64,000 bases of DNA from the NCBI GenBank assembly GCA_965202585.1, contig OZ241829.1, positions 73,346,001 to 73,410,000 on the forward strand, in the 5' to 3' direction. A program made the position numbers. Position 1 is the stretch's first letter. Each line of letters opens with the position of its first letter. The stretch is from Thalia democratica. Lineage: Eukaryota. Shown piece by piece: positions 1 to 64,000 of the stretch.

Positions 1-3000
1 AAGCTAGTTTAATGCTGTTTTTTTATTTAAACTATTCTGATAGTAATTAAACTTTTAGTAGGTAATTTTCTACAGTTGTTAAACCATATGTATATGACAC
101 AATTGCTTTAAACACTTATTCTACTTTAATTAATAATTTAAACCTGATAAATAATACTTTCATTTAAATAAAAACTTAGGTTATTGTGTTTAAACAATAC
201 GAACCTTATTTTATTGAAATAATGTAATAAATTTATTTAAAAACTTTATTTATTCATTTTTTTAAAGCATATACTTTCTGTAAAAAATTATTCTAGTCCA
301 TGGTTTTAAACAGCCTTAACACTATAAAGTTTAAAGCTTCAATTAATAACTTAAGCTTCTTCTAACATTGTGGATTTAATTATTGCCAATAAGAATGCAA
401 AATAAAAAATACAACATGAGTTCAGCAAAAAAAGTTTTAAACCTAAAATAAGATGGCAGCTGTGATTAAGTGCGTAAATAAGTTTAAATTTTTTTAATCT
501 GAAACCTCCTTTTAGTTTTTTTTAAGTTTTCAAATATCTAATCTTAAGTTAATAAAAGTCTTGTAAATGTTTCACAGTTTTAATCAACAACTTTAGCTTC
601 TCCTAGTAGAAAATTGCAATTATTTTTTTTTTCTGCATTAAAGTAATGCCATTAAAATTCCAAATTAAATCAATAAAATTTCGTGTCAATAACGTAAAAG
701 ATGGCGACTATGTTTAAGCGTAAAATTAACTTTAAAACTTCAAACTGCTGTTTCAGCTTTCAATGGAAAGTGTTTAGTGACTTCACAGTGCTTTAGCTTG
801 AAGCGGTTATCATACGTCACAAGCAGCTTTTACCGCCAAGCTTGAAACTGAACGAGTTCTGTAAAGCCGTACGAGCCGACTCTAAAAATTAAAAATTGAT
901 GATTTAGAGGAAAAGTTTATTAGTGTAAATACATCGCCCAGCAGCTTCAAACTGTTTCATAATGTTAACGGGAGCTGTCGTGTTTCTACTGTCGTGACGT
1001 CACGTTTTACGGCTTGTTTTTATGACGCGCGTTTGTAAATTTGAGAGAACTTTTCATGGACCTCCGGTTTCGTAGTTAACTTTTTAAATGAAGTAGAAGA
1101 TGGCAGAAGAACAAAAAAAATCGCCCTCAGCTAAATACACGTTTCTGAAACAGGTTGAACAAGTGATTCAATACAAGACGGAGGTTAATAAAACTTGAAT
1201 TTTTTTTTTAAATTAAGACATTTACTGAGTTTCATCGCTAAACGAACACATAAAATGTAATTAATATCCAACTAAATTTAAGAGAATTAACAAAAAACTG
1301 TTCACAAAGTTTTCTTGCGCATCTGCCACAACATTTAAGTGGTTTTTCCTGTTGTTTTGTTAAAGCAAATAAGTATAGTTTTACTTTATTTTTTTAAAAA
1401 TATTCTTTTTAAAAGCAAAAATATGTAACTTAAACAAATATGACATGTTCACCTTAAAAAACCAAGTTGATAAAATAAAAAAAACAACGACAACATTTTA
1501 TTTTGTTACTAAACTTCTTATAGGACTAATAATTTATAAATTTTATGACTAAGAAGCGAGTAGTGTGTAAAAAAATAAAGTACTTAAAGTTTTTTTTTGG
1601 TTATGACGTCATCATTACAGTATATATAGAATATATTTTGATAACTATAGTATATGTAGTTGGTAAAAGCAAGTATCTGAAACATCATAGAATTTAAGTG
1701 AGTCGTTGCAAATGAAAGCTAGGTTGAACTACTTCTGTTTTTAGGTGTAATGTCATAGTTAATGAGTAGATTTATTTGTATTTGTTTCACCTATATTACT
1801 CTGAAGTAATTTTAAAGACATATACGAGTTTTAATAACAATAAAGCAAGTAGTTTTAACACAAACTTATTTAAATTTATGTCGAGTGCAGCTCCAAATGT
1901 TTTCTTAAATACGGTATCAACGAAAACATCGGCGAAAGTCTGCAGAGCAGAAGCCTGATTTTTATTTGTCGTGAGACAATCTTAAGTTTAACAAAATGGT
2001 TGCCAGTTCGATCATCAGGTCACAAATTTTTCGGTTGTGACTGACTGATTAGTCCTAAACGAAACCGGTCTCAGTCTACCGAAGGCTAGTGATCTGATGA
2101 TCCAATTGGCATGATGAGCCACCCTTTGTTTAATAAAGTATTAGTTTTAAAATTATTTAACTTCTATCACAGCTCTAATTTTATTGGTTGCAGCTCGCAC
2201 ATTAGAAAATTCTAAATAGAATTAAAAAAAAAAATATCAGGAAAATAAACGACAATTATAAACCTGAGAAGGCATATTTCAGTATTATTTATGCCGTACT
2301 TCATCACTTTACAAATATCTTATAGTTTGGGATATTAGAACAAAATTTTTATCAGTTTAAAGCTCAATTCCTTAGTTTTTGTATATTTTTTAGTTTTAGT
2401 TTTAGATAGTAAAGCTTTAACAGCGTTTTTTTTTAAAGAAGCAACATATAAATTTAAATCTTTTTGTACATTTTTTTGTCTTTTATTTTGATAGCTTTGG
2501 CCTCTACTTACAAAACATAAACGTAAGTTAAAAAAATTAGTAATAATTTGTTTCTTTTGAAACGTTCTTCCACTTATACAATAAGTATAGCGATAAATAT
2601 TTTTAAACGATTTAGATGCAATATTTGTACCAATTACTTTAAATAGTTCAAATTTCAAATTTTAAATGTTACGACTTTTGAACATATGTATGATATGTGG
2701 TTCTGTTAGTTAAATAAGAAAATATATTTACAACGTTACAGTTGATTTAAACTTGTTAAACTATATTAAGTTACTTTTTGATAGGCAATTATAAACCTTT
2801 TTTTTTTTTTGCTTTGTTTAGTAAGGAAATATTAATTTATAACTAACCAGACAGTTCATAGCTTTGTTGTTAGATCAAATCTGACGTGACCACTTCGATT
2901 GCGACTGACTAAGCTGTAAAAAACATTTGTTAATAATTTTATTTTACATAAGTCTGTTTAATGCTGTTTTAGATTAAACAGATGTACCGTAGAAAAATTA

Positions 3001-63000: not shown

Positions 63001-64000
63001 CCCGTGGCTCCTATACTGCTAACAGTCCCCAAGGGGACCACTTGGCTAATTTTTTGAAACCCTTTTCTAGACCTACTAAGTGCTTGTGCACAGTAAGTTT
63101 AGATATGTTAGTTTAATTCTCATGTCGTTAGAAAAAAGAGGGTTTACAAAAAAAGACTATTATGACGTCACAAGTAACACGAAAAACTCTTATGACGTCA
63201 TAATTTACTTTAGCTTCACAAGCCGAATCTCAAAGCGACTTCACCAACAGGATTTGAAGTCAGAGACATAACTATTAAACTATTCAAATTATTTTAAAAG
63301 ATTGTAAAAATTATCAAAGTTTGCTCTTTGTGAAACAAACATAAATTATTCGAAATTTTTAAATGAGATACCTCTCGAAACAGACAACCTATCCAGTGGA
63401 GTTGTAGACTGGTCAACAAAAAGAGTATAAGCTCATAAGAAGTATACAAAACAGTCACCTTGAAATAAACGGAAACAATTGGCGGCTGAAAGACACCAGG
63501 TTTGATATCGAAGACAATTAAATCACAAAGAGTGGACGGGCAAGGGTATCATTGGCGACAACAAATACATTAGTAAATAAGATTTTCTTATTTGCCGATC
63601 ATATATATGAACGATTGTATTATTTCCTTGGAACGAAAAGACATAAAAATTTGTAAGCACTGTTTACATATTAAGATGGTGCTTACCTTTGGTTCTTGTT
63701 TGTTTTACTATTTGCCGCTGCGATTTAAACTACGAAGTAAGAAAGCAGGTGCACGACTTTTATTGATAAACACATGCAACATAAGTTTGTCTGTTTACAC
63801 TAAATGTAGGACCACCCGAAAGCGAAATATCTACTGATCATCCAACAAATTTTATCCAGCTACCTTTTACTGAAACTAGAATGTTTTTATAGTTGATTGA
63901 ATGGATTTATGATTCGGGTGAAGTATAATGAACGTGAAACAAATATTTGAGTACAGCACGTACAAATATTCTTTAGTTTACATCTTTTAACTAATACTTA

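What the first reader, a model, noticed from the sequence alone, without database searches (positions are those of the whole stretch)
995..63200. About 29 perfect TGACGTCA (CRE) sites in 64 kb
Seen at 995, 1604, 3519, 3716, 10894, 10924, 13724, 15052, 25522, 27507, 28038, 33120, 33139, 39702, 39744, 43902, 45192, 45380, 48303, 48498, 50578, 50608, 52981, 56114, 58857, 61047, 61255, 63163 and 63193. At about 27% GC fewer than one is expected by chance. Duplication inflates the count, but the sites fall in at least five distinct sequence contexts. Established: TGACGTCA is the CREB/ATF bZIP site, and CREB is implicated in cnidarian injury and regeneration responses. Inference: an amplified bZIP-responsive regulatory landscape attached to an orphan gene family.
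Basis: partly seen in the sequence, partly recalled or inferred. Interest (0 to 1): 0.65.

Follow-up and report, generated by a model that had tools for sequence, protein, structure and literature searches.

The report
Conserved CRE palindromes in amplified non-coding modules
The 29 perfect TGACGTCA sites are real and far beyond chance, and they are the best-preserved part of short non-coding, promoter-like DNA modules that were copied many times in tandem, but no protein-coding gene family could be found attached to them.

Summary
All 29 TGACGTCA sites are at the listed coordinates. Chance expectation is 0.46-0.62. After collapsing recent duplicates, 13 positional groups remain.

Every site lies in one of three short non-coding module types inside a nested tandem duplication. 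These are a ~350-430-bp composite core (about 16 copies; every HMM hit on the + strand), a ~100-bp module and a ~70-bp block.

The CRE core is the only contiguous invariant block across diverged subfamilies. It is intact in 42 of 47 directed paralog comparisons, against 31% for all octamers and 35% for CpG octamers. Modules evolve more slowly than their flanks in 5 of 5 comparisons. This points to sequence-specific constraint, most simply a dimeric CREB/ATF-type bZIP site in promoter- or enhancer-like modules.

No Pfam, Rfam or tRNA match and no codon-position bias was found, so an "orphan gene family" is not supported. bZIP binding, transcription, genome-wide copy number and the source organism remain untested. 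A repeat family with a CRE-bearing internal promoter is the main rival.

The parts
667..1067 (+). Composite core 'g995': YY1-like box AAGATGGCG at 698, degenerate CRE1 at 778, CRE3 at 995, CRE4-like TGACGCGC, TGAGAG at 1041
   Evidence: Alignment A4; nhmmer composite HMM hit E=1e-68
1590..1660 (+). F-type block with CRE at 1604 (paralog at 58845-58915, CRE at 58857)
   Evidence: Alignment A7: ~70-bp conserved block around the CRE; the TATATATAG downstream is not kept in the paralog
3400..3741 (+). Composite core U1: YY1-like box 3433, palindrome-centred CRE 3519, CRE 3716. It is cut 10 bp after CRE 3716 by a 5.2-kb insertion and continues at 8941-8990
10876..11200 (+). Core C1: CRE doublet 10894/10924 (30 bp apart, forming the arms of a palindrome), then a hairpin followed by GTAGAAAT
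   Evidence: Alignment A1; nhmmer; fold z=-5.3
13684..14124 (+). Core c'1: TGATGTCA at 13698, CRE at 13724, remnants of module 2
15025..15126 (+). Module 3 (D type): TGATGTCA at 15033 and CRE at 15052, followed by GAACCTTCAAACAGACTTGTGAG
   Evidence: Alignment A5; nhmmer
18096..18212 (+). Module 2 copy i1 with degenerate TTACGTCA at 18137 (paralog at 37401-37525, site at 37447)
   Evidence: Alignment A2
25199..25593 (+). Composite core g25522: AAGATGGCGGC at 25237, CRE at 25522, TGACGCAA, TGAGAG
27409..28110 (+). Module 3 (E type) copies and a 42-43-bp tandem array: CREs at 27507 and 28038, TTACGTCA at 27996
30810..31216 (+). Composite core h1 in which all CRE positions are degenerate (TGACTTCA 30920, TGACGTAA 31147 and 31177)
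33112..33213 (+). Module 3 (D type): CRE doublet 33120/33139, 19 bp apart
39639..39823 (+). Module 3 (E type), 42-bp tandem units: TTACGTCA at 39660, CREs at 39702 and 39744
43808..44167 (+). Composite core x43902: YY1-like box 43837, CRE at 43902 paired in a palindrome with a TGCGTCAC arm
45073..45447 (+). Composite core U2: YY1-like box 45106, palindrome-centred CRE 45192 with three compensated stem pairs, CRE 45380
48184..48563 (+). Composite core U3: YY1-like box 48217, CRE 48303 at the apex of a 29-bp-stem palindrome, CRE 48498
50560..50850 (+). Core C3: CRE doublet 50578/50608
52938..53208 (+). Core c'3: CRE 52981 and TGACATCA 53011
54082..54475 (+). Composite core h2 (degenerate TGACGTAA 54406, TGACGTGA 54436)
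56106..56205 (+). Module 3 (D type): CRE 56114 and AGACGTCA 56133
58845..58915 (+). F-type block with CRE 58857
60931..61320 (+). Composite core U4: ATGGCGAC at 60964, palindrome-centred CRE 61047, CRE 61255
63145..63420 (+). Core C4: CRE doublet 63163/63193
40664..40735 (-). The only module copy on the opposite strand (module 3, degenerate TGACGCCA at 40700)

Best explanation
The TGACGTCA octamers are sequence-specifically constrained sites. They are most likely binding sites for a dimeric CREB/ATF-class bZIP factor. They form the conserved heart of short non-coding promoter- or enhancer-like modules that were multiplied by repeated local tandem duplication.

SHOWN:
- The window is a nested tandem array. 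Young macro-units of roughly 12-20 kb are 77-87% identical. Each holds several older sub-units in which only the modules still align.
- The main module is a ~350-430-bp composite core with a fixed order of elements: a YY1-like box AAGATGGCGAC; about 85 bp later a palindrome carrying one or two CREs; a second hairpin directly 5' of GTAAAAAT; GTGAAAGCGRGCGCT; a CRE; 21-22 nt later a CRE-like TGAYGYR; and 5-10 nt later TGAGAG.
- A second ~100-bp module carries CREs 19 or 42 bp apart.
- All modules but one point the same way.
- The CRE core is the only contiguous invariant block across diverged subfamilies, is retained far better than other octamers, and sits in modules that change more slowly than their flanks.
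- No protein-coding constraint is detectable in the duplicated DNA.

INFERRED:
- The constraint reflects bZIP dimer binding.
- The modules act as promoters or enhancers, either for non-coding transcripts of the array or for genes outside the window.
- GTAAAAAT serves as a TATA-like box.
For: Count and excess. Thirteen positional groups. Duplication map.

Module architecture: alignments A1, A2, A4, A5 and A7. In A2 the invariant run is T-ACGT-A of the CRE. In A4 it is CGT-ACA. In A5 it is ACGTCA.

Co-occurring elements: AAGATGGCG occurs 6 times, all on +, against 0.14 expected. The composite pattern CRE-N18-26-TGAYGYR-N-TGAGAG occurs 6 times, all on +, against 0 expected.

Orientation: composite HMM 13/13 hits on +, module 2 13/13, module 3 12/13, module 1 7/7.

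Retention:
- 42/47 directed paralog comparisons keep the CRE, against 22658/73333 (31%) for all octamers, 4220/11978 (35%) for CpG octamers and 76/208 (37%) for other ACGT-centred octamers.
- The CRE ranks 81st of 1183 words with at least 12 comparisons (median retention 0.40), and it is spread over many loci.
- In the 4-way U alignment only 69/908 (7.6%) octamer windows are invariant, and both CREs are. In the 3-way C alignment 394/1589 (24.8%) are invariant, and both CREs are.

Modules slower than flanks in 5 of 5 comparisons: 0.72 against 0.50, 0.85 against 0.78, 0.87 against 0.57, 0.88 against 0.83 and 0.87 against 0.61 invariant columns.

Palindromy extends beyond the octamer by at least 2 pairs at 12/29 sites (8.6% expected per site) and by at least 3 pairs at 7/29, which fits recognition by a dimer.

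No coding signal. No known RNA family.
Against: - No binding, chromatin or expression data exist here, and no transcription start site or transcript is shown.
- The retention statistics are not independent, because paralogs share history. TGACGTCA was also chosen because it is frequent, which favours retained words.
- In the V units each of the two D-type sites is lost in 1 of 3 copies.
- 3 of the 5 directed misses (2 distinct degenerate sites, at 15033 and 56133) and all the h-type cores show that sites do decay.
- Slower change in the modules could come from gene conversion between copies rather than from selection.
- Covarying hairpins and long palindromes are not expected of a plain bZIP site and suggest an additional or different structural role.
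- The putative TATA box of the F block is not conserved.
- Genome-wide copy number of the modules is unknown, so a dispersed repeat family is not excluded.
- Gap columns count as variable, which inflates the contrast for the i pair.
Confidence: 0.5

Rival explanations
1. The modules belong to a repeat family: a mobile element, or a satellite-like unit derived from one. Its own internal promoter or protein-binding region contains CREs. The window is then a repeat-rich region in which that element was further duplicated, and the sites serve the element, or nothing, rather than a host regulatory landscape.
For: The window is full of repeat structures:
- a 5.2-kb insertion with inverted 31-bp satellite arrays and an 8-bp target duplication;
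- MITE-like units with inverted 16-17-bp arrays next to cores;
- GIY-YIG remnants of a Penelope-like element;
- no recognisable host gene.

The three g/x-type cores lie in flanks that share no BLAST match. A YY1-type box near the 5' edge followed by internal factor sites resembles LINE 5' UTR promoters (recalled, not tested). Amplification of factor motifs by MITEs is documented in plants (PMC5950925, search listing and abstract only). The 16-17-bp arrays carry the CGTCAC half-site.
Against: The modules point the same way on almost every profile hit: composite core HMM 13/13 on +, module 2 HMM 13/13 on +, module 3 HMM 12/13 on +, and module 1 HMM 7/7 on +. Independent insertions would be mixed. 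No terminal inverted repeats, LTR pair, poly(A) tail or target duplication was seen at core edges in the alignments, although this was not searched exhaustively. No transposase or reverse-transcriptase ORF adjoins the cores. Copies that diverged in place still keep the CREs and evolve more slowly than their flanks.
Confidence: 0.3
2. The palindromes and hairpins are the functional or self-maintaining feature, and the CRE is their centre or arm. Possibilities are a hairpin RNA precursor (siRNA/miRNA-like), a DNA cruciform used in recombination or replication, or palindromes kept perfect by template-switch repair.
For: - Four U copies fold into a 29-pair stem with the CRE at the apex (-34.6 kcal/mol consensus). 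Three pairs are compensated in copy U2.
- As single-stranded DNA, all 6 of 6 module-1 regions fold better than all 200 shuffles (z from -3.2 to -6.4).
- A second hairpin 5' of GTAAAAAT has three different stem sequences at the same position. Stems of at least 6 bp occur in 8 of 14 copies against 8% at random positions.
- Rfam gives sub-threshold matches to repeat-derived miRNA hairpins at 45163-45230 and 48285-48328.
Against: - Only the module-1 sites lie in long palindromes. 11 of 29 sites have no palindromic extension beyond the octamer.
- The same octamer recurs in 13 positional groups, which calls for sequence-specific recognition and not just any palindrome.
- All three compensations are in one copy and could be a single template-switch event.
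- RNAalifold on seven module-1 copies gives only -4.5 kcal/mol.
- The Rfam scores are far below the gathering thresholds.
Confidence: 0.1
3. The CRE arrays recruit ATF-2/Atf1-type factors that nucleate stress-sensitive heterochromatin over the repeat array, or that create recombination hotspots driving the tandem duplications. They would not be activating transcription.
For: Passages of PMC3444692 state that fission-yeast Atf1, Drosophila dATF-2 and mouse ATF-7 act in the formation of heterochromatin or heterochromatin-like structure. The window is a gene-poor tandem repeat array. ATGACGTCAT-type sites (flank counts) resemble the fission-yeast M26 hotspot (recalled, not tested). One macro-unit lacks a 2.2-kb segment lying between two homologous cores, as unequal crossing-over between cores would produce.
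Against: There is no chromatin or recombination data. Such a role has not been shown in any animal outside the cited cases. Duplication breakpoints such as 46824 do not coincide with a CRE.
Confidence: 0.07
4. One reading: the CRE modules are promoters of a tandemly duplicated protein-coding orphan gene family.
For: Promoter-like module order and uniform orientation. A possible short ORF (about 28-32 codons) starts 60 bp after TGAGAG of core g995, at 1100 (read by eye).
Against: That peptide has no paralog downstream of any other core. Sequence downstream of TGAGAG is unalignable between subfamilies. 0 of 167 frames open in both copies show third-position bias. The ORF over the C doublet is broken in 2 of 3 copies. 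10 of 10 ORFs gave no Pfam match reaching the curated cut-off. Exons shorter than 30 codons could not be tested.
Confidence: 0.05

Closest known systems
Clustered full CREs in CREB/ATF-responsive promoters and enhancers (for example the repeated CRE-bearing units of viral enhancers; recalled, not from a call)
   Same: Perfect palindromic TGACGTCA, several copies per element, often paired at short fixed spacings (19, 30 and 42 bp here), next to other general promoter motifs (a YY1-like box).
   Different: Here the element is itself amplified about 16-fold along 64 kb with no identifiable gene. Many of the sites are embedded in long palindromes and hairpins. Binding and inducibility are untested.
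Injury-responsive CRE motif in Hydra chromatin (PMC8049744, passages read)
   Same: Same motif. That paper reports the CRE as the motif with the largest accessibility gain 0-3 h after amputation and names Jun, Fos, CREB and ATF as possible binders.
   Different: That work concerns promoters of Wnt-pathway genes. Nothing links it to this locus, and the organism of this window is not established. Its Supplementary file 3 (motif enrichment) could not be opened.
Transcription-factor motif amplification by mobile elements (MITEs; PMC5950925, search listing and abstract only)
   Same: Many copies of a short non-coding element, each carrying the same factor motif.
   Different: The cores show no terminal inverted repeats or target duplications, and nearly all lie in one orientation. 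This fits local tandem duplication better than transposition.
LINE-1 5' UTR promoters with a YY1 box, and tandem promoter monomers (recalled, not from a call)
   Same: An AAGATGGCG-type box near the 5' edge of the conserved unit, in sense orientation, followed by internal factor sites. The promoter units are repeated.
   Different: No ORF1/ORF2 or reverse-transcriptase remnants follow the cores. The units are 2-3 kb apart, not abutting.
ATF-2/Atf1-dependent heterochromatin (PMC3444692, passages read)
   Same: CRE-binding bZIP factors acting on repeat-rich DNA.
   Different: No chromatin evidence here. The cited cases do not describe arrays of perfect CREs in conserved modules.

Membership tests
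Functional CREB/ATF (bZIP) response element | Full palindromic octamer TGACGTCA | tested here: met
   29 exact matches
Functional CREB/ATF (bZIP) response element | Site retained under constraint relative to surrounding sequence | tested here: met
   42/47 retained against 31-37% for control octamers. Invariant in the U 4-way and C 3-way alignments. It is the only contiguous invariant block in A2, A4 and A5. Caveat: the comparisons are not independent.
Functional CREB/ATF (bZIP) response element | Occupied by a bZIP protein; activity changes with signalling | not testable with these tools
   Needs ChIP, CUT&Tag, DAP-seq or reporter assays
Functional CREB/ATF (bZIP) response element | Lies close upstream of a transcription start site or TATA box (criterion recalled) | tested here: inconclusive
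   A TATA-like GTAAAAAT follows the sites in modules 1 and 2, but no start site is known. The TATA-like box of the F block is not conserved.
Mobile element carrying the motif (MITE, SINE, LTR, LINE 5' end) | Defined termini (inverted or long terminal repeats, or a poly(A) tail) with target-site duplication | tested here: inconclusive
   None seen at core edges in alignments A1, A2 and A4. Not searched exhaustively.
Mobile element carrying the motif (MITE, SINE, LTR, LINE 5' end) | Copies inserted in both orientations | tested here: not met
   Composite 13/13, module 2 13/13, module 1 7/7 and module 3 12/13 hits on the + strand
Mobile element carrying the motif (MITE, SINE, LTR, LINE 5' end) | Many dispersed copies genome-wide | not testable with these tools
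   No genome of the source organism is available. A scan of prokaryotic genomes for the YY1-box pattern found 0, as expected.
Tandem protein-coding (orphan) gene family | Conserved open reading frame with third-position substitution bias between paralogs | tested here: not met
   0 of 167 open-in-both segments of at least 30 codons are significant (lowest uncorrected p = 0.077). The ORF at 10847-11152 is broken in 2 of 3 copies, with substitutions 6/6/2, 10/12/6 and 12/14/8 over codon positions.
Tandem protein-coding (orphan) gene family | Recognisable protein domain | tested here: not met
   10 of 10 ORFs without a Pfam match reaching the curated cut-off.
Known structured RNA gene array (snRNA, spliced-leader RNA, 5S, tRNA, miRNA) | Match to an Rfam model at its gathering score, or a tRNA prediction | tested here: not met
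   0 matches at gathering score. 4 sub-threshold hairpin matches. 0 tRNAs.
Hairpin-RNA / pre-miRNA-like locus | Stable ~60-70-nt hairpin kept by compensatory change | tested here: met
   29-pair stem in 4 of 4 U copies, 3 compensated pairs in one copy; z from -4.5 to -6.4
Hairpin-RNA / pre-miRNA-like locus | Small RNAs processed from the stem | not testable with these tools
   Needs small-RNA sequencing

The most novel reading that the evidence does not exclude
The locus is a lineage-specific tandem array of CRE-driven non-coding units. Each unit would combine a stress- or injury-responsive bZIP switch with a perfectly maintained hairpin. The array would then work either as an inducible hairpin-RNA or lncRNA cluster, or as an ATF-controlled heterochromatin block whose state depends on signalling. 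The CRE would be both the protein-binding site and the apex or arms of the hairpin.
Probability: 0.12. Interest if true: 0.7.

Novelty: new variant of a known kind. Interest (0 to 1): 0.4.

Why it matters
If the modules are bound and active, this is a compact natural example of a regulatory motif kept intact through many rounds of duplication while everything around it decays. It would also be a candidate signalling-responsive non-coding locus, relevant to injury or stress responses if the organism really is a cnidarian. If the modules prove to be a dispersed repeat, they matter in a different way. A repeat family carrying perfect CREs would seed bZIP sites across the genome and would inflate motif-enrichment results in ATAC-seq studies unless multi-mapping reads are handled properly. 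In either case the long ORFs across the duplicated parts of this region that were tested show no coding constraint and should not be annotated as genes without transcript evidence.

Tried and rejected
- Rfam at gathering score found 0 matches. At E<=5 it found 4 sub-threshold hairpin/miRNA-like matches, taken as palindrome artefacts.
- ARAGORN found 0 tRNAs.
- Pfam on 10 ORFs gave nothing at or near the cut-offs. The first attempt used a wrong frame.
- The possible peptide after core g995 was searched by tblastn against the window and has no paralog.
- A codon-position test on the ORF across the C doublet shows it is not coding. A window-wide coding scan of paralog pairs gave 0 of 167.
- RNAalifold on seven module-1 copies gave -4.5 kcal/mol, too weak to call a structured RNA.
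- Telomere repeats: only three isolated CCCTAACCC, no arrays.
- The F block as a CRE-plus-TATA promoter: the TATA-like box is not conserved in the paralog.
- Conservation profile of the V units: no exon-like peaks.
- Sensitive self-comparison within one macro-unit found homology between sub-units only in the cores and minisatellites.
- A scan of 185,579 prokaryotic genomes for the YY1-box pattern found 0.
- Literature: searches found no description of a CRE-rich tandem module of this kind, but they are word searches and prove little. PMC2687796 (passages) and PMC10069465 (passages) held nothing bearing on this locus.
- The protein atlas lead for ORF 36044-36439 points to GIY-YIG clusters. This is a side observation only.
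Full report
**Observation.** Dinucleotide-preserving shuffles give a mean of 0.62 and a largest value of 4, and 0 of 100 reach 29. An order-1 Markov expectation is 0.46. Apart from words of a 31-bp satellite, it is the most over-represented octamer in the window. The window is 29.1% G+C, has no N and has a CpG observed/expected ratio of 1.06.

**Effect of duplication.** A self-comparison shows a nested tandem structure.
- 'U' units lie at about 2142-12400, 44067-46824 (truncated), 46824-52221 and 59577-64000.
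- 'V' units lie at about 14320-18000, 30011-35558 and 53261-58827.
- Copies are 77-87% identical, so they are old, real paralogs and not an assembly artefact.

Clustering the 29 sites by +/-40-bp flank identity at 70% gives 13 positional groups. Random flank pairs average 53% with a maximum of 65%. Thirteen independent positions against fewer than one expected is still a very large excess.

**Where the sites sit.** All 29 lie in three kinds of short module.

*(i) A composite core of about 350-430 bp* (alignments A2 and A4). Its elements come in a fixed order:
- a YY1-like box, AAGATGGCGAC. The 9-mer AAGATGGCG occurs 6 times, all on the + strand, against 0.14 expected. The YY1 assignment is recalled and not tested.
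- about 85 bp later, a palindrome carrying one or two CREs ('module 1').
- a second short hairpin directly 5' of GTAAAAAT.
- about 80 bp later, GTGAAAGCGRGCGCT, a CRE, 21-22 nt, a CRE-like TGAYGYR, then 5-10 nt and TGAGAG ('module 2'). The composite pattern occurs 6 times, all on +, against 0 expected.

Beyond about 40 nt after TGAGAG the subfamilies are unalignable. The doublets at 10894/10924, 50578/50608, 63163/63193, 13724 and 52981 are diverged module-1 copies of the same core (alignment A1; nhmmer). I count about 16 cores. Some have all CRE positions degenerate, for example 30810-31216 and 54082-54475.

*(ii) A ~100-bp 'module 3'* at 15052, 33120/33139, 56114, 27507, 28038 and 39702/39744, with degenerate copies at 22597/22615 and 40700. 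Here CREs 19 or 42 bp apart precede GAACCTTCAAACAGACTTGTGAG and AACTCAYAAAATTGTTAC (alignment A5). Two short 42-43-bp tandem arrays of this unit exist.

*(iii) A ~70-bp block* at 1604 and 58857 (alignment A7).

Profile searches built from these alignments hit the + strand in 13/13 (composite), 13/13 (module 2), 12/13 (module 3) and 7/7 (module 1) cases. Hits to the training sequences are by construction. The new hits were the c' copies.

**Is the octamer constrained?** Several tests bear on this.
- Across diverged subfamilies the only contiguous invariant columns are the CRE core: T-ACGT-A in A2, CGT-ACA in A4 and ACGTCA in A5.
- Among recent paralogs the octamer is intact in 42 of 47 directed comparisons. 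The controls are 22658/73333 (31%) for all octamers, 4220/11978 (35%) for CpG-containing octamers and 76/208 (37%) for other ACGT-centred octamers.
- CpG octamers are not lost faster than others, so there is no sign of methylation-driven CpG decay here.
- Among 1183 words with at least 12 comparisons, the CRE ranks 81st by retention (median 0.40). The words above it each come from a single locus.
- In the 4-way U alignment 7.6% of octamer windows are invariant, and both CREs are. In the 3-way C alignment 24.8% are invariant, and both CREs are. In the V units each D-type site is lost in one of three copies.
- The five directed comparisons that miss involve three distinct degenerate sites: TGATGTCA at 15033, AGACGTCA at 56133 and TTACGTCA at 27996.
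- Whole modules change more slowly than their flanks in 5 of 5 comparisons: 0.72 against 0.50, 0.85 against 0.78, 0.87 against 0.57, 0.88 against 0.83 and 0.87 against 0.61 invariant columns. Gap columns count as variable.

Three caveats apply. Paralog comparisons share history. The word was chosen because it is frequent. Gene conversion could mimic constraint.

**Palindromes.** The module-1 sites are part of long palindromes.
- In the four U copies a 29-pair stem has the CRE at its apex. Copy U2 (45192) carries three compensated pairs.
- In x43902 and the C copies two CREs pair as arms.
- All 6 of 6 tested regions fold, as single-stranded DNA, better than all 200 shuffles, with z from -3.2 to -6.4.
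- A second hairpin directly 5' of GTAAAAAT has three different stem sequences at the homologous position: AACCGCR/YGCGGTT, AGCCATT/AATGGCT and AATTATT/AATGATT. Stems of at least 6 bp occur in 8 of 14 copies against 8% at random positions.
- Across all sites, palindromy extends at least 2 pairs beyond the octamer at 12 of 29 (8.6% expected per site) and not at all at 11 of 29.

The palindromes may reflect dimer binding, an RNA or DNA hairpin, or template-switch repair. The last explanation is recalled and not tested.

**Is there a gene family?** I found none.
- The window has no ORF with a Pfam match at or near the cut-off among the 10 tested.
- It has no Rfam match at gathering score and no tRNA.
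- Many long ORFs are translations of 16-17-bp (CTTTTGCACGG...) and 31-bp minisatellites.
- The 102-aa ORF spanning the C doublet is interrupted in 2 of 3 copies, and its substitutions are not concentrated at third positions.
- Of 167 frames open in both members of a paralog pair (at least 30 codons and at least 6 substitutions), none shows third-position bias (lowest uncorrected p = 0.077).
- A possible 28-32-codon ORF after core g995 (read by eye) has no counterpart after any other core.

Exons under 30 codons, and genes outside the window, cannot be excluded.

**Interpretation.** The simplest reading of an exact 8-bp palindrome recurring at 13 positions, conserved above its surroundings and often with symmetric flanks, is a site for a dimeric sequence-specific protein. 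The CREB/ATF bZIP class is the known binder of this word. The fixed order of motifs, the uniform orientation and the loss of alignability just downstream of TGAGAG resemble promoters. I therefore favour tandemly amplified promoter- or enhancer-like non-coding modules (confidence 0.5).

The main rival (0.3) is a repeat family with a CRE-bearing internal promoter. The region is rich in transposon-like structures, and three cores lie in unrelated flanks. Against this, uniform orientation, the absence of visible termini and in-place conservation argue otherwise. The two readings overlap, since a repeat-derived module could also be bound. Less likely readings are a primarily structural hairpin role (0.1), ATF-type heterochromatin or recombination control (0.07; precedent in passages of PMC3444692) and promoters of a coding orphan family (0.05).

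**Context.** No call shows that this window is cnidarian. The only taxonomic hint is that the nearest atlas clusters of a GIY-YIG ORF remnant are eukaryotic, with Arthropoda and Rotifera as the commonest phyla, which is merely compatible with an animal genome. The paper's supplementary motif table could not be opened. Word searches turned up no description of such a module, which is weak evidence of absence.

**Verdict.** It is a new variant of a known kind (clustered or amplified CREs). Interest is moderate at 0.4. A genome-wide copy-number scan and multi-mapping-aware chromatin and transcript data would be decisive.

Noticed in passing
window 3742-8940: A 5.2-kb AT-rich insertion is bounded by inverted arrays of a 31-bp satellite (3751-4312 and 8303-8931). 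It is flanked by an 8-bp direct duplication GTTTCAGT (3734-3741 and 8941-8948) that is single-copy in the uninterrupted paralogs. It looks like a non-autonomous DNA transposon (an 8-bp duplication is typical of hAT elements; recalled). It splits module 2 of core U1, separating CRE 3716 from its CRE-like partner and TGAGAG.
   Followed up: partly
window 48579-49830 (also 8955-10241, 45474-46714, 61336-62507): Inverted pairs of 16-17-bp minisatellite arrays (unit about CTTTTGCACGGCGTCA, which carries the CGTCAC half-site) flank about 1 kb of very AT-rich DNA directly downstream of the U cores. The structure is MITE-like. Translations of these arrays give the long 'HFCT...' ORFs. No target duplication was looked for.
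   Followed up: partly
window 51550-51833: A long palindromic arrangement of the same minisatellite gives a sub-threshold Rfam match to the plant MIR5048 hairpin family (85.5 bits against a gathering score of 160). It is taken as a repeat palindrome, not a miRNA gene.
   Followed up: no
window 35809-36439: Two oppositely oriented ORF remnants (77 and 132 aa) carry a YIGQTSR-type motif. The protein atlas places the 132-aa ORF next to eukaryotic GIY-YIG clusters (score 0.94), while Pfam gives no match. This is probably a decayed Penelope-like retroelement endonuclease (the assignment is recalled).
   Followed up: partly
window 45163-45230 and paralogs at 3490-3560, 48274-48340, 61018-61085: The 29-pair palindrome centred on the CRE keeps perfect pairing in copy U2 through three double changes (CG to UA, CG to AU, CG to AU). 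The cause could be selection on a hairpin or a single template-switch event.
   Followed up: partly
window 3589-3605, 31028-31044, 11011-11027 and homologous positions: A short hairpin directly 5' of a conserved GTAAAAAT has three different stem sequences in three core subfamilies. This is covariation at a fixed position in a non-coding module.
   Followed up: partly
window 12042, 12271, 52068: Isolated CCCTAACCC words (one and a half telomere-type units) occur in the spacers after the C cores. There are no telomeric arrays anywhere in the window.
   Followed up: yes
window 10700-10790, 22982-23100, 50377-50480: A further short repeat, which translates as 'VSNYDL...' and contains CCCAAGGGGACCACTT, sits just upstream of the C cores and once elsewhere. 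Its nature is unknown.
   Followed up: no
window 13684-14320 compared with 52938-55490: Macro-unit 1 lacks the ~2.2-kb segment that lies between the homologous c' and h cores in macro-unit 3 and that is present upstream of V in macro-unit 2 (30011-32259). This is what unequal crossing-over between cores would produce.
   Followed up: partly
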